This document shows, one piece after another, positions 1,385 through 10,561 of a stretch of DNA of 64,000 bases. Each line of letters starts with the position of its first letter. Position 1 is the first letter of the stretch. The notes below the pieces were generated by a model, which ran no database searches, was not told where the DNA came from, and was given only the letters and a program-made list of their open reading frames with translations. The stretch comes from an uncultured Actinomycetes bacterium (GTDB lineage: Bacteria > Actinomycetota > Thermoleophilia > UBA2241), in contig CAVPVX010000007.1 of assembly GCA_963709345.1 (NCBI GenBank), positions 256,001-320,000 of the forward strand. Direction: 5' to 3'. The position numbers and the translations under genes were made by a program.

Positions 1385-3853
1385 TCAGCGTACCGTGAGG
1401 GCGGTCGCCACCGGGGCGACCTGGCAGTTCCCAGCTCGATCCCGAGCCGTGAACGTGAGCGTGTAGGCGCCGCGGCGCGGCGGCTTCCACACCAAGACGT
1501 TTCGCACCCCCGCCTTCACCCAGCCGAGCGACAAGGTCGCGGTGTCCCGGCCACGGCTGTCGACGACCGCAACGGTGACCCTCACTTTGGGACTGAACGC
1601 ATCGTCGACTCGGTAGGCGATCCTCGCTCTCCCGCCCGAGGCGACACGCGCGGACGCCGGCGCGACGATCCGAGGCTTCGTCAGGTCCACGGTGACCGCC
1701 TCCGTGAGCGACGACGTGCCGACCGCCCCGGCCGCGGTCACGACCAGGTGGTATGCCCCACTGGTCGCCGAGCCACCGCCGTCCAGCGCCCCATCCCACA
1801 CCACCGACCCGCCGCCTGACGGCAGGGTCGCGACAGGGCGGCCCGCGCGAACGACCGAGCAGGTCACTTCAGCCGGACGAGCCAGCTTGAAGCCGAGCGT
1901 CACCGAGTCGTGCCTGCCGTCGCCGTTCGGGGAGAGCGTCTCGCGAGAGAGCGACACGAACCGCAGCGTGCGATCCACCACCACGTAGCGCCGCAGCGTC
2001 GTCGAATTGCCGGCTGGGTCCCGCACCTCGAGGGCGAGCCTCGCTGAGCCCTCGGGGGCCGCGACCAGAGCGCCCCCGTCGCTTATCCGGCCGTCCCAGG
2101 TCACGCGCTGGACGCGCGCGCCCACCGTCGTCCACGACGTGAGCCTGCGCAGTACGGCTCCCGACGACGACAACACGGAGACGCGCGCCGCCGCGGTCTC
2201 GGACGGCTCGAACCGCAGTGTCGTGCGATCGGCGTGGCCGTCGCCGTTCGGGCTGAAGGGGTCAGGCGAGATCCGGACGTTGTCGACGGCGGGCGGCTTC
2301 GTGTCCAACCGCACGACGCCGGTCGCCGGTCGTGCGGTTCCGCTGGGGCCGGTCGCCGTGGCCACAACCGTGTACCGGCCGTCCGGAAGACGTCGACCTC
2401 CGACATCCTTGCCGTCCCAGACAACGTCGGCGAGGGTCCCGTCGCCGGCGACATGCCACACGGTCTCCCCGCCGGCGGCACGGACCTCCAGCCGCCACGA
2501 CACCATCCGCGACACCGTGAAGCCGATCGCCGCGCCGTCGAGCACGCCGTCGCCGTTGGGGCTGATGGCAGGGTGTTCGACGACGAACCCGTAGATCTTG
2601 GGGTGACCTCTGCGGGCCACGACCTGGCGGACGGTAGGCAGCATCGCGTAGAACCGGTTGCCGGGGCAGTCCGTGTGATTGGCGTCGCGGTGCCCGGCGA
2701 TCGCCGGTAGCTTCACTCGCTGGCCGGTCTTGTATTTCTCGCCGGCGCCGCAGACGAGAGTCGCTGTGCTCCGTGGGTCGATGTGATGCACGTCGAGCTT
2801 CCACTCGAGGAGACGCTCGAGCGACGTCAACGCCGACGACGACGGCGTGACGGCGGAGTACGTGCCGATCACGGAGATACCGGTGCTGCCCGTGTTGTAG
2901 CCCAAGGTCTGGGCGCCGATCACGCCTCTCGTGACACCGCCGTACCTGCCCTCGTAGATGACCCCGTACCGATCGATGAGGAAGTTGTAGGCGACGTCGC
3001 TCCAGCCCAGCGCGCGAGTGTGGTAGTGATACACACCGCGCACGATCGCCGGCGCTTGGGAAGCGCTGTAGCTGTTGCCGCTCGCCGTGTGATGGATGAA
3101 GGCCATCTTGACGGGCGCGTAGGAGGGCGAGCCCCTGCGCCACGACTCATTCGCGCCCCATTTGGCGCGGCTCACGATTCGGGGCTTCGCGATCACGGCG
3201 CCGGCCGGAGAGGCCGGGTCGATGGCCGCGACGGCGGCGGCCGCCCGCCTCAGCACGCCGAGAACGGTGGCGGACCGATCCGCGTCCTCGGTGCTGTTGA
3301 TGGCGACCACCTCGACGTCGCGGAGACTGACCGGCGCACCCGGCGCACCGGTCGCGGCGATCTCGACGAACCGGCCGACTCCGGTCCAGATGGGCTCGGT
3401 GAAGGCTTGCTGGACGCCGCCCTCCTCGGCCGCGCGTTCGAGCGCCACCGAATACCAGCGGCTCCACGTTCGGCCGTCCTCGCTCGTGCGGAGATGGACG
3501 GTGACGGCTCCCCTGCGGCCGGGAGGACGACACGTGACGCCGAGCATGGTGAAGCGCATCCCGGCGTCGAGCCGGGACGGAGCGGCGCCTGCGGAAGGGA
3601 CGAGTGTCTGGGTCCTCGCGCCGGCCTCGACCGCCCGCGCCTCTGCGCCGGTCTCCTCGTGCGGCCCGGCGGCGACGACCAGAGGAGTCGGCACCGTGAG
3701 AGACGCGGAGCGCACGGGAGGCGTGCTCACCCAAGCAGCGGCGGCGGCGCTGACGCGGGGCGCCGCCCAGACGGCGCTCAGCGCCCCCATGACGGCCAGC
3801 ACACAGACGGCCGCCACGCGCGCGGCCCTGGTGTGAGGATGAATCCGCGCCAT
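1385..3853 (-). CDS. Secreted N-acetylmuramoyl-L-alanine amidase (PGRP-like) with FlgD/Ig-like C-terminal repeats
   Basis: Signal peptide; SRAKWGA, FIHHTA, GWSDVAYNFLID, GHRD..TDCPG motifs; three SPNGDG..D Ig-like modules; RBS ggag before ATG 3853. Confidence 0.85.
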   Translation of the reverse strand: MARIHPHTRAARVAAVCVLAVMGALSAVWAAPRVSAAAAAWVSTPPVRSASLTVPTPLVVAAGPHEETGAEARAVEAGARTQTLVPSAGAAPSRLDAGMRFTMLGVTCRPPGRRGAVTVHLRTSEDGRTWSRWYSVALERAAEEGGVQQAFTEPIWTGVGRFVEIAATGAPGAPVSLRDVEVVAINSTEDADRSATVLGVLRRAAAAVAAIDPASPAGAVIAKPRIVSRAKWGANESWRRGSPSYAPVKMAFIHHTASGNSYSASQAPAIVRGVYHYHTRALGWSDVAYNFLIDRYGVIYEGRYGGVTRGVIGAQTLGYNTGSTGISVIGTYSAVTPSSSALTSLERLLEWKLDVHHIDPRSTATLVCGAGEKYKTGQRVKLPAIAGHRDANHTDCPGNRFYAMLPTVRQVVARRGHPKIYGFVVEHPAISPNGDGVLDGAAIGFTVSRMVSWRLEVRAAGGETVWHVAGDGTLADVVWDGKDVGGRRLPDGRYTVVATATGPSGTARPATGVVRLDTKPPAVDNVRISPDPFSPNGDGHADRTTLRFEPSETAAARVSVLSSSGAVLRRLTSWTTVGARVQRVTWDGRISDGGALVAAPEGSARLALEVRDPAGNSTTLRRYVVVDRTLRFVSLSRETLSPNGDGRHDSVTLGFKLARPAEVTCSVVRAGRPVATLPSGGGSVVWDGALDGGGSATSGAYHLVVTAAGAVGTSSLTEAVTVDLTKPRIVAPASARVASGGRARIAYRVDDAFSPKVRVTVAVVDSRGRDTATLSLGWVKAGVRNVLVWKPPRRGAYTLTFTARDRAGNCQVAPVATALTVR

Positions 3854-3929
3854 TCCGCTCCCAGCAGACTGCAGTGGCATCAGGGTACCACGGCTCTCGC
3901 GCAGGGCGGCGCTCCCGCCGGCACGCAAC

Positions 3930-3962
3930 GGGCGGCGGGGCGCTCGTCGCGCCCCGCCGCCC
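3930..3962 (-). terminator. Hairpin downstream of radical SAM gene
   Basis: gggcggcggggcgc-tcgtc-gcgccccgccgccc. Confidence 0.6.
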
Positions 3963-3989
3963 GGACACCTTTGACTCGAGGCCGTGCGC

Positions 3990-5372
3990 CTACGTCACCG
4001 GCGCCGACTCCTCGGTCGCTTCGGGAGCCCGCTCACCGTTCATGCAGCTCCAGATGGGATCGTAGAGGCGCTCGACGTCTGAGGAGTACACGTCGAGCTC
4101 AGCCTGCAGATCGGTGATCATGACGTCGCCGCCGGGATGGGTCGGCCGAGCCCCGGTCGCCGCCATGATCTCGCGTGACTGGTGTGGATTGTCGATCCAC
4201 ATACAGGGCATCAGCAGGTTGTGGTTGAACGGCTGACGACTGCGGATCTCCTGGAAGAACGGCGAGTTGAAAGCATCCAGGAGGCTCACGTCACGGACGT
4301 TGTCGGTGGCGAAGTGCGTGAAGATGCATGGCTCCACCCACCCGTCACTGTTGATGTGCATGTAGTGCCTGCCGGCGATACACCCGCTCACCCAGGGCGC
4401 ATCGCCCCAGAAATCGACGGGGAAGAGCGGCTTGGTGTCGCGGATACGATGGATGGCGAGCCGGAACCCGTTACGCTCCTCCGGCGTCAGCATCATGCTC
4501 AGGTCCGGGTGACGCCCCAAGGGCATGTACAGGAAGTTCCAGCTGAGCATGGCTCCCTTGGCGATCAGCGGATCGACGAACTCGTCGCTCATGATGTGCT
4601 GCCAGTTCTTGCGCATCACAGTGCTTGAATAGCCGAAGAGGACACCGGCCTCGCCCAGCTGATCCATGGTCTCCAGGACCTGGTCGTACACGCCGCGCCC
4701 GCGCCGCTGGTCGGTCATCTCGCGATTGCCCTCCAGGCTCAGCATCGGGGCGATGTTCCCGATCTCGGCGAGCCCGTCGATCATGTCTTGATCGAGGAGC
4801 GTGCCGTTCGTGAAGACCTGGAAGTATGCGTCCTTGTTCTCGCGCGCGAAGTCCAGCAACTCGTCCCACATGAAGGGCTCGCCGCCGAGCATCGTGAAGA
4901 GGTAGACGCCCATGTCGTTGCCCTCGTCCACGATCTTCTGCATCAGCCCGCGATCCAGATCCTGATCGGGCGAGTACTCGGCCGCGTAGCACCCCGCACA
5001 GGTGAGATTGCAGCGCATGGTGGGGCTCATGAGGATCGTCGTCGGGGCGTGCATGCCGGTCGAGTCCACGAGCTCTCTGCGCTTTGCGACGCCGCGAAGC
5101 AATGTATTCACAATAAGACATTCGATGAAGCTGTCGCGGCAACGCGGGCTGAGCTTCGAGGTCACGTGTCTGGCGATGAGCAACGCCGGGTGGTCGTCCT
5201 CGACCTTCTCGGTGACGAAACGCACTGAGCCCTTGTACTGTTCCGGGGTGATCTTCTCCGCAAGCTGGAACGCCTTGACGATCTTCGCTTTGTCGTCGCT
5301 GGCGGCCAGCTTGAGCATCTGGTTGATCGCCTGCCTCTGCACGGCCGTATAGAGGCCGTCCGTACGGCTCAT
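3990..5372 (-). CDS. Radical SAM protein with SPASM/twitch-type C-terminal Cys, function unknown
   Basis: CNLTCAGC (CxxxCxxC), GGEPF, TNGTL, GCIAG..HINSDGWVEPC; RBS gggagggg before ATG 5372. Confidence 0.88.
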   Translation of the reverse strand: MSRTDGLYTAVQRQAINQMLKLAASDDKAKIVKAFQLAEKITPEQYKGSVRFVTEKVEDDHPALLIARHVTSKLSPRCRDSFIECLIVNTLLRGVAKRRELVDSTGMHAPTTILMSPTMRCNLTCAGCYAAEYSPDQDLDRGLMQKIVDEGNDMGVYLFTMLGGEPFMWDELLDFARENKDAYFQVFTNGTLLDQDMIDGLAEIGNIAPMLSLEGNREMTDQRRGRGVYDQVLETMDQLGEAGVLFGYSSTVMRKNWQHIMSDEFVDPLIAKGAMLSWNFLYMPLGRHPDLSMMLTPEERNGFRLAIHRIRDTKPLFPVDFWGDAPWVSGCIAGRHYMHINSDGWVEPCIFTHFATDNVRDVSLLDAFNSPFFQEIRSRQPFNHNLLMPCMWIDNPHQSREIMAATGARPTHPGGDVMITDLQAELDVYSSDVERLYDPIWSCMNGERAPEATEESAPVT

Positions 5373-5885
5373 CCATCCCCTCCCTTCTCTCGGGTGTGCG
5401 TGCGCACCGCGGTGCGCACACGCTTGTCGTGCCGGCACACGGCGAGGGAGCGAGCGGACGGCGGCGGTCTCTCGGCCGGGCGCCTCGACGCATCGGCTCT
5501 CCCCCGACGGCCTCCGGACGTCTATGCACCTACTGTATCACTCGTGCGAGAGGGTCTCCGGCCTCCGGCCGTCGCTCTGCGCATGCCGCCAGAGGTTCGC
5601 GCCCGCCCATTGGTTGTCGAAGGCCAGAACGACCACATCGTCACGCGAGAGGGGGTGACGGGCGGCGGCCGTGGCGGCCCCGGAGGACCGGAGAGCCAAC
5701 GCCCGGGACCGCCCCCTTCAGGACCGTGACGCTCACCGCGTCCAGTTGCCGGGCTGGCCGGCCGCGCCAGGTCGCGCTCCACACCGGCGCGGGCGGCCGC
5801 ACTTCGAGTCCCTGATGAGCCTCTCGCGATGCTCGTGCGTCGCCAGACTGGCGACACTTGCTGTGTCAATTCGCCTACCAAGGCC

Positions 5886-5921: not shown

Positions 5922-6000
5922 AACGACAAAGGCAAACCTGTCGCGAGGCAGGGACGCAAAGCCAGAGGTCTTGGATGATCAAGATAGCTCGGTTGCCGAA
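5922..6000 (+). ncRNA. Cyclic di-GMP-I (GEMM-I) riboswitch
   Basis: AAGGCAAACC-TGTC-GCGA-GGCA-GGGACGCAAAGCC...GGTTGCCGAA reproduces the GEMM-I core with a GNRA loop; G at the position equivalent to G20 suggests c-di-GMP rather than cGAMP. Confidence 0.88.
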
Positions 6001-6138
6001 TCCGAACTCCGCACTCGCGGATCTCGCCTTCAGCATCTCGCGCGAGGCCAGCGTCCTCCTCCCGACCGGAGCGCCGTCCAGCAACGTCCGCCGGCCTTGA
6101 GCAAGTCGGCAGGCCCAAGGAGCACTGGTGTGGAGGCG

Positions 6139-7886
6139 ATGAAGATGAGACCAAGGTATTTCGTTCTCGCCGTAGCGCTGCTCTGCCTCCTGGTCTTGCC
6201 CGGCACGGCACTGGCCAAGGCCAAGAGCGACGACGACAAGATCGACCAGAGCGTCACGACAGTCCTCAAAGCCACGGGCGGTGATGACGCCGTGCCCGTC
6301 GTGGTGTACACGGAGCCCGATGAGGCGACGGTCGTAGCTGCTGCCGTGCCCGACGTCGTCGAGACCACGGAGATCCCGGCCTTCGATGCCGTCGCCGCTT
6401 ACCTGCTGCCCGACGAGATCGACGCGCTCTCCCTTGACGATTCCGTCCTCATGATCGTCGCCGACAACCCAGTCTTCGGCTTCGACTACGCCAGCTCGCT
6501 CGACATCACCAATCTCGCGATCGGGCTGGATGCAGTCGCATCACCGGCCGAGGGCGGCCCGGACGGCAGCGGCGTGGGCGTCGCCGTCATCGACAGTGGC
6601 ATCACGACGACGTCCGACCTGGGCGACAGCCGCATCGTCGGCTGGAAGGACTTCGTCGACAAGAGAAGGCGGCCGTACGACGACGCCGGACACGGGACCT
6701 TCGTGGCCGGCCTCATCGCCGGAGACGGCACCGCCTCGCTCCCGCTCGACCAGGGCGGCTACGCGACGATGCAGTTCCGCGGCGTCGCCCCGGCGGCCAA
6801 CATCATCGGCGTCAAGGTCCTGGACAGCAACGGCAGCGGGTCGCGCATCCGCGGTCATGTCGGCCATCGTCTGGACGGTCGCCCACAGGAACGCCTACAA
6901 CATCCGCGTGATGAACCTGTCGCTCGGGGCCAACCCGGTCGCCCCCGTGGAGTTCGACCCCATCGCGCGGGCCGTGGAGTTCGCCTGGAAGCACGGCGTG
7001 ACGGTCGTCTGCGCCGCCGGCAACGAGGGCGAGTTCGGCCCCGGCGGGATCCTGTCTCCGGGCAACAGCCCCTACGTCCTGACGGTCGGCGCCAGCGATA
7101 CCCGCCAGACGGCAACGCTCGACGACGACGCCGTCACCTACTACAGCTCGGTCGGGCCGACGCTCTTCGACGAGTTCGCCAAGCCCGACGTCGTGGCGCC
7201 GGGTAACCGGCTCATCTCGACGAGGGTGCCGGGCTCGTACATCGACGTCAACTACCCGCAGAACCTGATCCCGGTGGGAAGCTACGCGCCCACGGCGCCG
7301 GCAGACACTGAAGCCGAGCTATCTGATGCTGTCCGGCACCAGCACGTCCGCGCCGGTCACAGCCGGCGCAGCGGCGCTGATGCTCGGCGCCGACCCAAGC
7401 CTGACCCCCGACGACGTCAAGCTGCGCCTCATGGCCACGGCCGACCCCCTGCCCGGAGCGACCCGCCACCAGCAAGGCGCAGGCCTGATCGACGTCGACG
7501 AGGCTCTGGCCGACACCTCGAGGTCCGAAGGGTATGCTCTCTCTGAAGACCTCGGTGACGGCACGACGATACTCAGCAAGAACGTCTATGCCGCCTGGGA
7601 CACGACGGCATGGAAGAAGTACGGATGGACGAAGTTCCGCTGGACGAAGTTCCGCTGGACGAAGTTCCGCTGGGTGAAGTTCCGCTGGACGGACACCGAA
7701 GTGGAAGCGACGAAGTTCCGGTGGGTGAAGTTCCGCTGGACGGACGTGGGAGCGACGAAGTTCCGCTGGACAGACGTGGGATGGACCAAGTTCCGGTGGA
7801 CGTCCGACTACCAGGCGACCAAGTTCCGGTGGACGGAGTACGACTGGACCAAGTTCAGATGGACGATCCTCATCGAAGGACAGTGA
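6139..7886 (+). CDS. Secreted S8 subtilisin-like serine protease with C-terminal KFRW repeats; two +1 frameshifts (~6840, ~7311)
   Basis: Signal peptide MKMRPRYFVLAVALLCLLVLPGTALA; VAVIDSG and HGTFVAG in frame 1, AAGNEG and KPDVVAPG in frame 2, SGTSTSAP in frame 3; removing one base at each junction gives a continuous 581-aa protein. Confidence 0.85.
7626..7862 (+). repeat. Ten coding repeats of [T/V]KFRW (15-bp core acgaagttccgctgg)
   Basis: Directly visible tandem and spaced repeats with synonymous variation. Confidence 0.95.
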
Positions 7887-9415
7887 CCCTGGACTCAGCT
7901 GAAGTCATCGACGGTAACGAGACGGCCGTGCGGAAACGCACGGCCGTCTCGCTCTACGTGGGCCTCGTCTGCCTCGCGGCCGCAGCCGTCTCAGCGGCAG
8001 CCGGCTTGAGCGAGCCCGCGCCGTTCACGCTCAACATCGTGGCGTTCATGATCCTCGCCACGCTCACCGACCTCCGAGAGATCAAGCTGCCGCTGGTCGG
8101 CGATGTGACTCTGTCGTTCGTGCCGGTGCTCGCCGCCCTCGTCGCCCTCGGGCTGTGGCCGGCGATGGCGGTCGCGGCCGTCAGCGGCGTGACCGCCGCC
8201 TGGGTGACGCGCGACCCGCTCAAGATCGCCTTCAACATCGGGAACTACGTGATCTCCACCTATCTGGCCGGCCTCCTGTATCTGGCGTTGGCGCCCGAAG
8301 GCGGCGACTTCATGACCAAGGTCCTCCCCACCTTCGGAGCGACGATCGTGGACTTCGCCGTCCACACGGCGCTCCTCGCCGGCGTGATCGCCCTCTCGAC
8401 GCAGGACCACGCCGTCAAGGTGTGGCGCACCAACTACCAGTGGGCGCTGCCGGGGTATCTCGCCGGCTCGACGCTGGCCCTGCTCGTAGCGGCCCTCTAT
8501 CTCTGGCTCGGGGTGCCGGGGATGCTGCTCGGGATCCCGCCGCTCTATCTCATCTACTACTCGTACGACATCTACGTGAAACGGGCCCGGGAGCGCCAGA
8601 CATTCGACGCCGAGCGAGACGACTTCCACGAGGAGCTCGCCGCTTCGGTGCACCTGCACGACGAGCTGCGCACGACGCAGCTGAAGGTGGCCGCCGAGAT
8701 CGAGCGCGCCCGCCGTATCCAGACCGACCTCCTCCCCACCGGCACGCCCGACATCGAAGGCCTGGAACTCGACCAACGGATCGAGTTCCTCGGCGAGATG
8801 GGGGGCGACTACTACGACTACATCCCCTTCGGCGACGGCCGTCTCGCGATCGTGTGCGGCGACGTCATGGGCAAGGGCCTCGCCGCCGCCCTGATCATGG
8901 CCATGGCGCGCTCGCTGCTGCACAACGCAATTGCTCCCGACAAGAGCCCGGGCGAGATCATGGCCGAGGTGAACGACGGCCTTGCACGCGACCTCGAGGG
9001 CCAGCGCCTGCCGTACTTCCTGACGCTGGCCATCGCGGCGTACGACCCCGCCGGCCACAGCCTCGTGGTCGCCGGCGGGGGGCACAACCCGGTCCTGATC
9101 GCCGACGCCGACGGGATCCGACAGGTGCCGTCTCAGGGGGCCGCCCTCGGCGTGCGCACGGGACTCAGCTACCCTGAGGACGACATCGCCCTCGGCACGG
9201 GAGCCACGGTCGCCCTGTACACCGACGGACTGACCGAGGCGCGCAATGCCGCCGGCGAACTGTACGGCCCGGAGCGGCTCGAGGCGTCGCTCGAACGGTG
9301 TCGGACGCGGCCCGTTCGTGACACACTTGAAGACATGTGGAGCGACGTCGCCGCGTTCCGCGGCGAGAGGGTAGCAACGGACGACGCGACGCTCCTGCTC
9401 GCGCGCTTCGTTTGA
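7883..9415 (+). CDS. Membrane-sensor PP2C/SpoIIE (RsbU-like) Ser/Thr phosphatase
   Basis: About 7 N-terminal TM helices with KIAFN motif (MASE9-like), coiled coil, then ARRIQ..LLP, GGDYYD, GDVMGKG, YTDGL, DDAT; GTG overlaps the protease stop (GTGA). Confidence 0.9.
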   Translation: MTLDSAEVIDGNETAVRKRTAVSLYVGLVCLAAAAVSAAAGLSEPAPFTLNIVAFMILATLTDLREIKLPLVGDVTLSFVPVLAALVALGLWPAMAVAAVSGVTAAWVTRDPLKIAFNIGNYVISTYLAGLLYLALAPEGGDFMTKVLPTFGATIVDFAVHTALLAGVIALSTQDHAVKVWRTNYQWALPGYLAGSTLALLVAALYLWLGVPGMLLGIPPLYLIYYSYDIYVKRARERQTFDAERDDFHEELAASVHLHDELRTTQLKVAAEIERARRIQTDLLPTGTPDIEGLELDQRIEFLGEMGGDYYDYIPFGDGRLAIVCGDVMGKGLAAALIMAMARSLLHNAIAPDKSPGEIMAEVNDGLARDLEGQRLPYFLTLAIAAYDPAGHSLVVAGGGHNPVLIADADGIRQVPSQGAALGVRTGLSYPEDDIALGTGATVALYTDGLTEARNAAGELYGPERLEASLERCRTRPVRDTLEDMWSDVAAFRGERVATDDATLLLARFV

Positions 9416-9458: not shown

Positions 9459-10232
9459 ATGCCCGACACGACGGCCGGCATGCCGGCCTCTCTTCAGGTC
9501 TACCGGTACAGAGCCGGCGCCGCGCGCGTCGAGGCCGTGGTCGGCGAGATGGAGCCGGATCTCCCCCACGAAGACCTTGTCGCGCATGCCACGGAGGCGA
9601 TGACGCAGGGCACCTTCATGTGCTACGCCGTACCGCAGAGAGACGATTTCGTCGCCGACGAGATCTGCTTCATCCCCCAGGGCGACCGCTGCGACATCCT
9701 CAGCATCAAGACCAACGGCTGGCAGCGCCACCACGGCGATCACCGTCGAAGCCTCGTGGAGATCCTCAACAACATGGCCGCGGCCGTCGCCTGCGGCAAG
9801 CTCCGCATACTCGACGAAGACGAGCTCCGCGTCGAAGTGGAGCGGGGGGAGCCGGCGCTCCACTTCGACATCGACAGAACGGCCGACCTCCAGACGGCCC
9901 GGGAGGCCGTCGACGCGCTGCTGCAGGAGGCGGGTCTCGACGACATCAACCGGCAGCGCACGATCCTCTGCATCTCAGAGGCCGTGACCAACATGCTGCT
10001 GCACGGCGGCGGTCACGGCTCCATGACACTACGCACGCTCGACGACCGCCTCCGGATAGTGGTGGCCGACTCGGGTCCCGGCCTCAACTTCCTGAACTGG
10101 ATCGACCCGCCCTCCAAAGGCGGTCAGGCGTCGATGGGCTACGGCTACAAGATCATCCTCGACTACCTCGACGCCGTCGGCCTGCGCACGACCCCGGTGG
10201 GAACTACGTTACTATTGGACCGCACGATCTAA
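9459..10232 (+). CDS. RsbW-like anti-sigma factor/Ser kinase (HATPase_c_2) with extra N-terminal domain
   Basis: ISEAVTNMLLHG (N box), VADSGPG (G1), MGYGYKII (G2). Confidence 0.8.
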   Translation: MPDTTAGMPASLQVYRYRAGAARVEAVVGEMEPDLPHEDLVAHATEAMTQGTFMCYAVPQRDDFVADEICFIPQGDRCDILSIKTNGWQRHHGDHRRSLVEILNNMAAAVACGKLRILDEDELRVEVERGEPALHFDIDRTADLQTAREAVDALLQEAGLDDINRQRTILCISEAVTNMLLHGGGHGSMTLRTLDDRLRIVVADSGPGLNFLNWIDPPSKGGQASMGYGYKIILDYLDAVGLRTTPVGTTLLLDRTI

Positions 10233-10249: not shown

Positions 10250-10561
10250 ATGCTGCGCACATCCGTCGCCCAAGGCCCGGCGCCCACCGTCTACCTCGCC
10301 GGCGAGATGGACCTCGACTGCGCCGACGCGCTGCGTGAGGCCGTCGCCGACGCCGCGAAGGGCGCCGAGGTGGTGGCTCTCGACTTCGCGAGCGTGGAGT
10401 TCATCGACTCCTCGGGCACGGGGATCTTCGTGCGTCTGTGCCTCGACCTCAAGAGCCAAGGCACGCCGCTTGTGGCACGCAACCTCTCGCCGGCCGTGCG
10501 CGGCGTGTTCGACATGCTGCGCGTGCGCGAGCTCGTGGGCGACGAGGTCTTCCCCGGCTGA
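10250..10561 (+). CDS. STAS-domain anti-anti-sigma factor (RsbV-like)
   Basis: LAGEMD..LDFASVEFIDSSG phospho-Ser motif; 103 aa; RBS ggag. Confidence 0.9.
   Translation: MLRTSVAQGPAPTVYLAGEMDLDCADALREAVADAAKGAEVVALDFASVEFIDSSGTGIFVRLCLDLKSQGTPLVARNLSPAVRGVFDMLRVRELVGDEVFPG

What the first reader, a model, noticed from the sequence alone, without database searches (positions are those of the whole stretch)
7626..7862. Ten-copy [T/V]KFRW peptide array under protein-level selection
Seen: four tandem copies, then six copies mostly separated by short acidic spacers (TDTEVEA, TDVGA, TDVGW, TSDYQA, TEYDW). Codons vary synonymously (cgc/cgg/aga, acg/acc) while KFRW is invariant. Inference: either a multi-core precursor (identical cores plus acidic spacers, fused to its own protease), a cationic-aromatic membrane-active peptide, or a Trp-ladder beta-solenoid/amyloid-like anchor.
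Basis: partly seen in the sequence, partly recalled or inferred. Interest (0 to 1): 0.7.

Follow-up and report, generated by a model that had tools for sequence, protein, structure and literature searches.

The report
Tryptophan-periodic repeat tail on secreted protease
The ten KFRW repeats are real and conserved: they form the tail of a secreted subtilisin-type protease, one variant of a tryptophan-every-fifth-residue tail common in actinobacterial proteases, and most likely hold the enzyme on a surface instead of being released as peptides.

Summary
Ten [T/V]KFRW units lie at 7629-7862 in one frame, and the only codon changes within KFRW are synonymous. They form the C-terminal tail of a signal-peptide-bearing S8 subtilase (about 6139-7886). 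The tail is kept in 21 of 24 same-genus genomes, with dN/dS of 0.04-0.16. The "acidic spacers" are mostly pentads too, so Trp recurs every fifth residue along the whole tail.

The tail resembles pentapeptide repeats below threshold. It is the cationic variant of a Trp-period-5 tail found on S8 peptidases in 66 of 74 loci across Actinomycetota. AlphaFold2 gave no confident fold.

A c-di-GMP-I-GGC riboswitch (5922-6001) precedes the gene. A PP2C/RsbW/STAS module follows it.

The neighbouring radical SAM gene is not coupled to the tail, so the RiPP reading is unsupported. The window's gene has two one-base insertions, and contigs from other runs lack both.

Best reading: a non-catalytic binding or retention module. 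Its function is inferred, not shown.

The parts
5922..6001 (+). c-di-GMP-I-GGC riboswitch aptamer (Rfam RF03167) in the 5' leader of the protease operon
   Evidence: It scores 73.4 bits against a gathering score of 59, E 1.7e-15, and matches the full model 1-80. The same element lies upstream of the orthologous gene in 12 of 14 relatives' loci. It is 92% identical across 13 copies.
6139..7886 (+). S8 (subtilisin-family) peptidase gene, read in three frames in this assembly. It encodes a signal peptide, a propeptide, the catalytic domain and the repeat tail. The start is ATG 6139 or ATG 6145, and the stop is TGA 7884-7886.
   Evidence: Pfam PF00082 matches three frames. The nearest NCBIfam family is mycosin, far below its cut-off. 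tblastn with an intact ortholog covers all three pieces at 68-72% identity. The sequence shows the motifs VAVIDSG, HGTFVAG, AAGNEGE and SGTSTSAP.
6139..6216 (+). Predicted Sec signal peptide (MKMRPRYFVLAVALLCLLVLPGTALA, followed by KAK)
   Evidence: Read from the sequence. It has basic residues, then a hydrophobic stretch, then ALA. This is inferred; no signal-peptide predictor was run.
6838..6841 (+). First frameshift site: one extra base in gcgggtcgc
   Evidence: The frame changes here. One contig in each of runs X2, X3 and X4 bridges the site, and each lacks one base at 6838-6841.
7313..7313 (+). Second frameshift site: one extra base (gaa g ccg)
   Evidence: The frame changes here. Contigs from X1 (263 bases, one other difference) and X4 lack this base.
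7530..7628 (+). Conserved linker or N-terminal cap of the tail (GYALSEDLGDGTTILSKNVYAAWDTTAWKKYGW)
   Evidence: G, L, S, D, G, G, T, I, L, Y, W, W, K, Y, G and W are invariant in 10 of 10 aligned tails. Several of these positions are nearly invariant in 61 full-length family members.
7629..7862 (+). The finding: ten [T/V]KFRW units with the spacers TDTEVEA, TDVGA, TDVGW, TSDYQA and TEYDW
   Evidence: W-W spacings are multiples of 5 in 12 of 14 cases here, and in all cases in 7 of 10 tails compared.
7863..7883 (+). Conserved C-terminal end, TILIEGQ (family pattern [TS][IV]L[ILVT][EQN]GQ, then stop)
   Evidence: All nine tails printed end this way, as do the more distant family members TKFAW, TKYAW and SKYAW.
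7883..9415 (+). PP2C/SpoIIE-type phosphatase with an N-terminal MASE9 membrane domain. Its GTG start overlaps the protease stop codon (GTGA).
   Evidence: Pfam PF07228 at 2.2e-46 and PF20972 at 6.3e-06. It is syntenic in 14 of 14 loci. The overlap is read from the sequence.
9459..10232 (+). RsbW/RsbA-like anti-sigma-factor kinase
   Evidence: NCBIfam NF041045 at 6.5e-13, below its cut-off. Syntenic in 14 of 14 loci.
10250..10561 (+). STAS-type anti-sigma-factor antagonist (assigned by eye, not by a family scan)
   Evidence: The ORF is. It is 77-92% identical and syntenic in 14 of 14 loci. The STAS label comes from my reading of the sequence and not from any call.
3990..5438 (-). Divergently transcribed radical SAM/SPASM gene (start uncertain). 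It is a neighbour and is not shown to be part of the system.
   Evidence: Pfam PF04055, PF13186 and PF13353. It reaches no NCBIfam family cut-off. It is adjacent in 13 of 14 loci but uncoupled from the tail across genomes.

Best explanation
The KFRW array is the C-terminal, non-catalytic repeat module of a Sec-secreted S8 subtilase. It is not a set of separate peptides.

The module has three parts:
- a conserved cap, GYALSED..W..W.KYGW;
- about 17 consecutive five-residue units, with Trp in the fifth place, a hydrophobic residue (F; Y, V or I in relatives) in the third, and Thr or Ser in the first;
- a conserved end, TILIEGQ.

Cationic units (TKFRW) alternate with acidic or neutral ones (TDVGW, TEYDW). 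The tail is strongly basic (pI 10, 24 K+R against 14 D+E, 15 Trp), whereas the catalytic part of an ortholog is acidic.

It is the cationic, Phe-centred variant of a Trp-every-fifth-residue tail that many Actinomycetota S8 peptidases carry. Its pattern matches the pentapeptide-repeat register: T=A, K=D/N, F=L, R=x, W=x.

Most likely mechanism (inferred): after export and propeptide removal, the tail forms a repetitive beta structure, or an extended sticky strand. This displays rows of Trp with Lys and Arg. Through stacking and charge these bind a repetitive anionic or glycan polymer of the cell envelope or matrix. The protease is thereby kept at the producer's surface or on its substrate.

In most of this genus, expression is set by a c-di-GMP-I-type riboswitch. 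The gene is co-transcribed with a membrane PP2C / anti-sigma kinase / STAS switch. That places it among surface and aggregation functions.

Shown here: the anatomy, conservation, purifying selection, fusion to S8, the riboswitch, the operon, and the spread of Trp-period-5 tails. Inferred: the fold, the binding partner, and retention as the purpose.
For: - Anatomy and codons.
- The tail is present in 21 of 24 same-genus genomes. It was not found in 16 other genomes of the class, where only the S8 part matched.
- 104 metagenome proteins match the tail region alone, and all carry PF00082.
- dN/dS is 0.04-0.16 for the cap plus the first three units, against eight relatives.
- Unit number varies from 6 to 13. 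The unit type is TKFRW, TKFKW, SKFKW, TKFAW or TKYAW, while Trp, the period and both caps are kept.
- All W-W spacings are multiples of 5 in 7 of 10 tails.
- Likeness to pentapeptide repeats:
  - PF13599 at E 0.0025 for the window's tail.
  - 8 of 61 family members match PF13599 and 2 of 61 match PF00805 at E<=0.01.
  - The fragment P0105 passes the PF00805 cut-off, 25.1 against 20.2 bits.
  - The tail profile retrieves canonical pentapeptide-repeat proteins; 21 of the 64 hits I scanned carry PF00805.
  - hhalign against such proteins gives probability 97% in the register T/A-K/D-F/L-R/R-W/x, over only 22 columns.
- Wider class: 15 of the 64 scanned hits are S8 peptidases with other Trp-period-5 tails. 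66 of 74 S8 loci from Acidimicrobiia, Actinoplanes, Blastococcus, Geodermatophilus, Frankiaceae and others end in such arrays.
- Charge split, measured on an ortholog: catalytic part pI 4.5, tail pI 9.9-10.
- Riboswitch.
- The only other near-threshold copy in the genome lies upstream of a type IV pilin gene, which is another surface function.
Against: - No confident fold. AlphaFold2 gives the tail a pLDDT of about 24 in a full-length ortholog with 61 sequences, and a mean of 35 for the tail alone with 10 sequences. A canonical pentapeptide-repeat helix is usually predicted well.
- The window's tail is below the Pfam cut-off (18.3 against 38 bits). 53 of 61 family members show no pentapeptide hit at E<=0.01.
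- Repetitive composition inflates profile scores, so searches are weak evidence.
- The period is broken in some tails. In the window the TDTEVEA spacer has 7 residues and TSDYQA has 6. In L020 six-residue TKDVDW units give only 14 of 21 spacings as multiples of 5.
- Many tails of the wider class (WTASR, WSGTR, WSSTS, WYGGS) have no hydrophobic centre, so they do not fit the pentapeptide pattern.
- Net charge is not conserved across the wider class; WTGID and WADVS are acidic. Charge cannot be the general principle.
- No binding partner, localisation or expression data exist.
- The gene is out of frame in this assembly.
Confidence: 0.5

Rival explanations
1. The tail is an intrinsically disordered sticker tail. 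It does not fold. Evenly spaced Trp, with Lys and Arg, act as cation-pi stickers. They make the enzyme adhere to surfaces, or condense with anionic polymers such as wall polymers, extracellular DNA or humic matter. The purpose is the same (retention) but the physics differs.
For: - Two AlphaFold2 runs give very low confidence for the tail.
- The wider class keeps only the Trp spacing. The rest is small, polar residues (WSGTR, WSSTS, WYGGS), which is typical of low-complexity regions.
- Unit number changes freely, from 6 to 13.
Against: - The cap motifs at both ends are conserved, and the third position is strictly hydrophobic in this clade.
- The likeness to pentapeptide repeats is consistent in register.
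- dN/dS is as low as 0.04, which is unusually strict for a disordered linker.
Confidence: 0.22
2. The tail is a self-processed multi-copy peptide precursor. The protease, or a partner, cuts after Trp and releases TKFRW-type pentapeptides. These act as signals, perhaps sensed by the co-transcribed MASE9-PP2C switch, or as cationic antimicrobial peptides.
For: - Cores are identical within a genome and differ between species, while the spacers vary.
- The operon is coupled to a membrane sensor phosphatase, with an overlapping stop and start.
- From general knowledge, not from a call: subtilases accept large hydrophobic residues before the cut, and Bacillus Phr pentapeptides are released by subtilisin-type proteases.
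Against: - The spacers keep the same 5-residue register, and four cores follow each other with no spacer.
- The caps are conserved.
- Trp-period-5 tails sit on S8 peptidases in 66 of 74 loci. Next to them RsbW was found in 0 of 74, STAS in 0 of 74, and a PP2C in only 5 of 74.
- No free-standing short form was seen. The short hits are contig fragments of S8 genes.
Confidence: 0.07
3. The tail is the substrate of a radical SAM enzyme. The divergent rSAM/SPASM enzyme would cross-link Trp with Lys (W-T-K or K-x-x-W), as in streptide, darobactin or triceptide maturation.
For: - The rSAM/SPASM gene is adjacent and divergent in 13 of 14 loci.
- It has generic similarity to peptide-modifying rSAM families, all far below their cut-offs.
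- The W-x-K and K-x-x-W spacings resemble known cross-link motifs. This is recalled knowledge and was not tested.
Against: - G003 has the tail, but the rSAM was not found with this query (93% complete genome).
- G027, from another family, has a 63% identical rSAM, but no tail was found there with the query.
- The rSAM sits next to Trp-period-5 S8 loci in 0 of 74 cases.
- Family variants lack the Lys (WTGVR) or the Arg (TKFAW).
- The riboswitch faces the protease operon only.
- The rSAM appears to be co-transcribed with a cell-wall amidase-like gene instead (the assignment is by eye).
Confidence: 0.03
4. The tail is a self-assembling, amyloid-like or oligomerising domain that builds a protease-decorated fibre or layer.
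For: The units are highly regular, aromatic-rich repeats. Nothing else supports it.
Against: High net charge (24 K+R in 122 residues) and frequent Asp and Gly units disfavour amyloid. No relative of known functional amyloids appeared in the Pfam scans.
Confidence: 0.04
5. In this particular genome the gene is a dead pseudogene, so the tail is not made here.
For: Two frame changes fall within 1.75 kb. The four neighbouring genes align over nearly their whole length (about 94-100% of each query) with relatives and without frame breaks.
Against: - Both changes are single extra bases.
- Every contig from other runs that bridges them lacks that base: three for the first site and two for the second. 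One is 263 bases long with a single other difference.
- No stop codons or other damage lie within the three pieces, which stay 68-72% identical to an intact ortholog.
- Frame breaks also occur in other genes of related assemblies, which points to assembly error (L016, L019, L026, L027).
Confidence: 0.1

Closest known systems
Pentapeptide-repeat proteins (Pfam PF00805, PF13599; right-handed quadrilateral beta-helix, e.g. MfpA, Qnr, Rfr, SV2 luminal domain)
   Same: - Tandem five-residue units.
- A small residue (T or S) two places before a central hydrophobic residue (F).
- Alignment consistent in register, T/A-K/D-F/L-R/R-W/x.
- Canonical members with Trp in the fifth place (WADLR) are retrieved by the tail profile.
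- The only two PDB hits, both non-significant, were the SV2C luminal domain (which I recall as pentapeptide-repeat) and HalA.
   Different: - Below the Pfam cut-off for the window's tail and for most family members.
- Lys replaces the usual Asp or Asn.
- Trp is invariant at position 5.
- The tail is extracellular and fused to a protease.
- No beta-helix was predicted.
- Some tails break the period.
Trp-period-5 C-terminal tails of Actinomycetota S8 peptidases (unnamed; no Pfam model hit them)
   Same: The architecture is the same: signal peptide, S8 domain, then a C-terminal array with Trp every fifth residue. It was found in 66 of 74 loci, including Actinoplanes, Blastococcus aggregatus, Geodermatophilus chilensis and Acidimicrobiia MAGs. 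It was also found in 15 of 64 scanned profile hits.
   Different: - Their units are mostly small and polar with Arg (WTASR, WSGTR, WAARA, WSSTS), without the Phe centre and without Lys.
- They lack the GQ end.
- No riboswitch was found with model R1.
- They have no partner-switch operon.
C-terminal extensions of secreted or surface subtilases in general (wall-anchored lactocepin-type proteases, PPC and P-domains, the mycosin membrane anchor)
   Same: Each is a non-catalytic C-terminal module on an exported S8 protease that positions or regulates the enzyme. Mycosin is the nearest NCBIfam model.
   Different: - Mycosin scores 41-59 bits per piece against a cut-off of 279.
- No transmembrane helix, LPXTG, SLH, PPC or P-domain match appeared in Pfam.
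- The comparison with lactocepin and PPC domains is from recalled knowledge.
Aromatic-repeat polymer-binding modules (choline-binding repeats; the Trp-rich glucan-binding sheet of plant ESV1/LESV)
   Same: Regularly spaced aromatic residues on a repetitive beta structure bind a repetitive polymer. The ESV1/LESV preprint 10.1101/2023.06.09.544376 was seen only as a search listing and the start of its abstract.
   Different: No sequence similarity was found; there was no PF01473 hit. The repeat length and pattern differ. This is an analogy only.
Multi-core peptide precursors and rSAM-cross-linked RiPPs (streptide, darobactin, triceptides)
   Same: Repeated identical short motifs that contain Trp and Lys, with an rSAM/SPASM gene next door.
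   Different: - The array is fused to the C-terminus of a 580-residue enzyme, not to a short leader peptide.
- The rSAM is not coupled to the tail across genomes.
- The rSAM reaches no family cut-off.

Membership tests
Peptidase S8 (subtilase) | Match to PF00082 above the cut-off, and the Asp-His-Ser catalytic motifs | tested here: met
   PF00082 scores 44.7, 59.9 and 33.8 bits in the three frame pieces, against a cut-off of 21.8. An intact ortholog scores 151.8 bits. The motifs DSG, HGT and GTS are visible. Caveat: there are two one-base frame breaks in this assembly.
Type VII secretion mycosin (TIGR03921) | Score above the equivalog cut-off of 278.75 bits | tested here: not met
   The three pieces score 58.8, 43.6 and 41.1 bits. 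No C-terminal transmembrane helix is seen in the sequence.
Pentapeptide repeat (PF00805 / PF13599) | Pfam score above the gathering cut-off | tested here: not met
   The window's tail scores 18.3 bits against 38 for PF13599. 8 of 61 family members reach E<=0.01 for PF13599 and 2 of 61 for PF00805. One close fragment, P0105, does pass PF00805 with 25.1 against 20.2 bits.
Pentapeptide repeat (PF00805 / PF13599) | Five-residue period with a small residue at i-2 and Leu or Phe at i | tested here: met
   T/S-K-F-R/K-W units; 7 of 10 tails are strictly period 5. hhalign places T on A and F on L.
Pentapeptide repeat (PF00805 / PF13599) | Right-handed quadrilateral beta-helix fold | tested here: inconclusive
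   AlphaFold2 gives the tail a pLDDT of about 24 and 35. No fold search was run because the models are unusable.
c-di-GMP-I-GGC riboswitch (RF03167) | Covariance-model score above the gathering score, located in the 5' leader of a gene | tested here: met
   73.4 against 59 bits, full length, 138 bases upstream of the ATG. It is present in 12 of 14 orthologous loci. Ligand binding was not tested. The ligand of this variant class is not known to me.
RiPP multi-core precursor with rSAM maturase | Maturase co-occurs with the precursor across genomes | tested here: not met
   G003 has the tail, and no rSAM was found with this query. G027 has the rSAM, and no tail was found. The rSAM is beside the wider tail class in 0 of 74 loci.
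RiPP multi-core precursor with rSAM maturase | Cores released or modified (mass shift, cleavage) | not testable with these tools
   This needs mass spectrometry.
Choline-binding / cell-wall-binding repeats (PF01473 and similar) | Pfam match | tested here: not met
   No such family appeared at E<=10 for the tail or at E<=0.01 in 61 family members.
Cationic antimicrobial peptide / functional amyloid | Activity on membranes; cross-beta fibres | not testable with these tools
   No computational test is available here. Composition alone is not a test.

The most novel reading that the evidence does not exclude
The tail is a polyprotein of pentapeptide signals. Under control of the cyclic-dinucleotide riboswitch, the secreted subtilase cuts its own tail after each Trp. 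This releases many copies of a species-specific pentapeptide: TKFRW, TKFKW, SKFKW, TKFAW or TKYAW. The co-transcribed membrane MASE9-PP2C phosphatase senses the peptide and feeds the RsbW/STAS partner switch. This would be a self-contained enzyme-plus-pheromone-plus-receptor operon in an uncultured Thermoleophilia genus.
Probability: 0.05. Interest if true: 0.85.

Novelty: new variant of a known kind. Interest (0 to 1): 0.5.

Why it matters
Secreted proteases are costly public goods, and how monoderm Actinomycetota keep them at the cell is poorly known.

This work shows that a tail with Trp at every fifth residue is a common, unnamed C-terminal module of actinobacterial S8 peptidases. It was found in 66 of 74 loci, including cultured Actinoplanes, Blastococcus and Geodermatophilus. 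No Pfam model hit these tails, and no paper was found for the motif.

The KFRW form is its most regular and most cationic variant. It is tied to a c-di-GMP-type riboswitch of a variant class whose ligand is, to my knowledge, unsettled.

If the tail is a polymer-binding Trp ladder, it would be a new kind of surface-retention or carbohydrate-binding repeat. It would also give a handle on the c-di-GMP regulon of Thermoleophilia. The cultured relatives make the idea directly testable.

Tried and rejected
- **Structure prediction.** AlphaFold2 on a full-length intact ortholog with 61 sequences modelled the S8 core, but the tail had a pLDDT of about 24. AlphaFold2 on the window's tail with 10 sequences gave a mean pLDDT of 35. 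No fold search was run on such models.
- **Self-association.** A job with two copies of the tail returned no answer: score 0.00, with the partner's fold uncertain. This counts neither for nor against.
- **ESM Atlas.** No usable hit.
- **PDB sequence searches.** Only non-significant hits: phage gp7 at E 0.52, and HalA and SV2C at E about 0.7.
- **Literature.**
  - No listed paper holds TKFRW or WTKFRW. The KFRW hits are unrelated, for example the MgrB signal peptide.
  - None of the 15 papers listed for 'pentapeptide repeat' with subtilase terms contained 'pentapeptide repeat'.
  - The Trp-ladder and Trp-rich searches gave thrombospondin, cytokine-receptor and ESV1 papers only.
  - The paper that defined the c-di-GMP-I-GGC class (PNAS 2017) is not held. 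What I say of its ligand is therefore recall.
- **RNA evidence.** No RNA holder was listed among the sequencing runs.
- **Riboswitch outside the genus.** Model R1 found its positive control (the pilin leader, 45.9 bits). It found nothing upstream of the 74 wider-class loci, nor in L022 and L025. The model was built from 92%-identical copies and may miss distant aptamers.
- **Other frames.** The long + frame 7610-9415 (EVPLD repeats) and the minus-strand ORF 7586-7789 (QRNFV repeats) are by-products of the repeat. The same wrong-frame text appears in frameshifted database entries P0104, P0110 and P0111.
- **** failed on a size limit and was repeated.
Full report
**1. The observation**

In frame 0 the window reads ...AAWDTTAWKKYGW TKFRW TKFRW TKFRW VKFRW TDTEVEA TKFRW VKFRW TDVGA TKFRW TDVGW TKFRW TSDYQA TKFRW TEYDW TKFRW TILIEGQ, then stop. 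The ten units lie at 7629-7862.

Inside KFRW all differences between copies are synonymous:
- Arg is CGC x6, CGG x3 and AGA x1.
- Lys (AAG), Phe (TTC) and Trp (TGG) never vary.
- Position 1 is ACG x5, ACC x3 and GTG x2, the last giving Val.

Tandem Repeats Finder sees the array at periods 15 and 30. A six-frame scan of the 3.11 Mb genome finds no other run of five or more Trp at period 5. A protein search of the genome with the tail finds only this locus.

**2. What carries it**

The tail ends an S8 subtilase gene (about 6139-7886). Pfam PF00082 matches in three different frames, at profile positions 1-97, 96-212 and 236-288. The nearest NCBIfam model is mycosin, far below its cut-off.

Comparison with an intact ortholog places the two frame changes at 6838-6841 and at 7313. 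Each is consistent with a single extra base.

Contigs from four other public runs were laid on 6700-7900.
- The one contig in each of X2, X3 and X4 that bridges the first site lacks one base there.
- One contig each in X1 and X4 lacks the base at 7313. The X1 contig is 263 bases long with a single other difference.

Frame breaks also occur in other genes of related assemblies (L016, L019, L026 and L027). I therefore read the two breaks as probable assembly errors. A strain-specific pseudogene is not excluded.

The N-terminus looks like a Sec signal peptide. This is read from the sequence and is inferred. Two of 61 family members match the I9 propeptide family.

**3. Conservation**

With the last 186 residues as query, 21 of 24 genomes of the same genus have the tail, mostly in open frames of 519-819 residues; three of the 21 (G001, G011, G012) show it only in shorter frames of 146-265 residues. 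In 16 other genomes of the class only the S8 part matched.

A search scoring only the tail region of an intact ortholog found 104 proteins. All carry PF00082, and the few that are named are Thermoleophilia MAG peptidases.

Across these proteins:
- The unit number is 6-13.
- The unit is TKFRW, TKFKW, SKFKW, TKFAW or TKYAW.
- The cap GYALSED..G.G.TIL..Y..W...W.KYGW and the end [TS][IV]L[ILVT][EQN]GQ are kept.

For the cap plus the first three units, dN/dS between the window and eight relatives is 0.04-0.16, with dS of 0.9-1.8. Protein-level selection is therefore shown.

**4. The register**

The "acidic spacers" are mostly pentads themselves (TDVGW, TNVAW, TDYEW, SDFDS). In 7 of 10 tails every W-W spacing is a multiple of 5. 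The window has 12 of 14, because TDTEVEA has 7 residues and TSDYQA has 6. One relative, with six-residue TKDVDW units, has 14 of 21.

The pattern is small residue (T/S), then K/D/E, then hydrophobic (F/Y/V/I), then R/K/A/D/G, then W. This is the pentapeptide-repeat pattern A-[D/N]-[L/F]-x-x with Trp in the last place.

Evidence for that likeness:
- PF13599 at E 0.0025 for the window's tail, which is below the cut-off.
- 8 of 61 family members match PF13599 and 2 of 61 match PF00805 at E<=0.01.
- One close fragment passes the PF00805 cut-off.
- A profile of ten tails, searched against 1.84 billion representatives, gave 551 hits at E<=0.001. I chose 64 of the 150 listed for a Pfam scan, favouring long proteins and clear arrays. 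Of these, 21 carry PF00805 and 15 are S8 peptidases.
- hhalign against six canonical repeat proteins gives 97% probability in the expected register, over 22 columns only.

Repetitive sequence inflates such scores, so I treat this as a pattern-level likeness and not as membership.

**5. Fold**

AlphaFold2 modelled the S8 core of a full-length ortholog but left the tail at a pLDDT of about 24. The tail alone gave a mean of 35. The fold is unresolved. A beta-solenoid, a hairpin stack and a disordered sticker strand all remain possible.

**6. A wider class**

The 15 S8 hits have other Trp-period-5 tails, such as WTKYA, WNALR, WASVR, WTGVS, WADVS, WTAMR, WDGIS and WTAVR. The named ones come from Thermoleophilia and Acidimicrobiales MAGs.

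I scanned one genome per species with an alignment of these proteins. That returned 74 loci, and 66 of them end in such arrays. They include Actinoplanes nipponensis, Blastococcus aggregatus DSM 4725, Geodermatophilus chilensis, Pseudosporangium ferrugineum, many Acidimicrobiia and two Chloroflexota MAGs. Three of the eight exceptions run off their contig.

In that class only the Trp spacing is constant. Many units have no hydrophobic centre, and the net charge varies. A surface protein of Firmicutes type (P0121: signal peptide, Flg_new repeats and an SPKTG sorting-like end) also carries WSK.D arrays.

**7. Context**

A c-di-GMP-I-GGC riboswitch aptamer lies at 5922-6001, 138 bases before the ATG. 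It is present in 12 of 14 orthologous loci. It was not found in the two most divergent loci, either at Rfam's gathering score or with my own model.

The only other near-threshold copy in the genome (57.5 bits) precedes a type IV pilin gene.

Downstream, the protease stop overlaps the GTG of a MASE9-PP2C phosphatase. An RsbW-like kinase and a STAS protein follow. All three are syntenic in 14 of 14 loci.

The wider class has none of this: RsbW in 0 of 74 loci, STAS in 0 of 74, PP2C in 5 of 74, and no riboswitch found.

**8. The radical SAM neighbour**

A divergent rSAM/SPASM gene (3990-5438, minus strand) is adjacent in 13 of 14 loci. However:
- G003 has the tail and no rSAM was found there with this query.
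- G027, from another family, has a 63% identical rSAM and no tail was found there with the query.
- None of the 74 wider-class loci has the rSAM.
- Family variants lack the Lys or the Arg.

On the minus strand the rSAM is followed after 61 bases by a large secreted protein. By eye this looks like a cell-wall amidase. The RiPP reading is not supported.

**9. Verdict**

The array is a selected, structural repeat module of an exported protease. It is the cationic Phe-centred variant of a widespread, undescribed Trp-period-5 tail.

The most likely role is binding to a repetitive envelope or matrix polymer, which would retain the enzyme. In this genus it is expressed under cyclic-dinucleotide control. 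The function and the fold are inferred.

I found no paper on the motif.

Noticed in passing
window 5922-6001 (+): A c-di-GMP-I-GGC variant riboswitch (73.4 bits) sits in the leader of the protease / PP2C / RsbW / STAS operon. It is conserved in 12 of 14 orthologous loci. The ligand of this variant class is, to my knowledge, not settled.
   Followed up: partly
G000:C7:105613-105687 (-), locus L035 1496-1580: A second aptamer of the same type lies just under Rfam's cut-off (57.5 against 59 bits) and scores 45.9 bits with my model. It lies directly upstream of a type IV pilin gene with the GFTLIELLIV motif. The variant riboswitch therefore seems to control two surface functions in this genome.
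   Followed up: partly
window 6838-6841 and 7313: There are two single-base insertions in the protease gene of this assembly. Contigs from other runs lack both. Related assemblies show similar frame breaks in rSAM, S8 and PP2C genes (L016, L019, L026, L027). This suggests indel-prone assemblies in this genus.
   Followed up: yes
window 1385-5438 (-): A radical SAM/SPASM gene has a 130-residue N-terminal extension that matches no family. After 61 bases it is followed by an 847-residue secreted protein that looks like an N-acetylmuramoyl-L-alanine amidase with Ig-like repeats (by eye). The rSAM is about 80% identical across the genus. Paralogues at 41-54% identity occur in the class.
   Followed up: partly
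loci L036-L109 (genome contigs): S8 peptidases with C-terminal Trp-every-fifth-residue arrays (WTASR, WSGTR, WAARA, WSSTS, WYGGS, WGGRT and others) occur in 66 of 74 loci across Actinomycetota, including cultured Actinoplanes, Blastococcus, Geodermatophilus and Pseudosporangium. No Pfam model matched these tails in the members scanned.
   Followed up: partly
protein P0121 (749 aa, metagenome): A surface protein of Firmicutes type has a signal peptide, Listeria-Bacteroides repeats and an SPKTG sorting-like end. It carries a WSKFD/WSKID/WGKCD period-5 array at residues 162-253. Trp-period-5 arrays are therefore not confined to proteases.
   Followed up: no
L018 18011-18099 (-); L023 19708-19810 (+): A c-di-GMP-II-GAG variant riboswitch (55.5 bits) lies about 8 kb from the operon in one relative. 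A PYLIS_3 (pyrrolysine insertion sequence, mttB) match of 59.6 bits lies in another.
   Followed up: no
window 7610-9415 (+) and 7586-7789 (-): The repeat is open in two other frames (EVPLD and QRNFV repeats). This makes the PP2C ORF appear 90 codons too long. Database entries P0104, P0110 and P0111 contain this wrong-frame text after frameshifts.
   Followed up: yes
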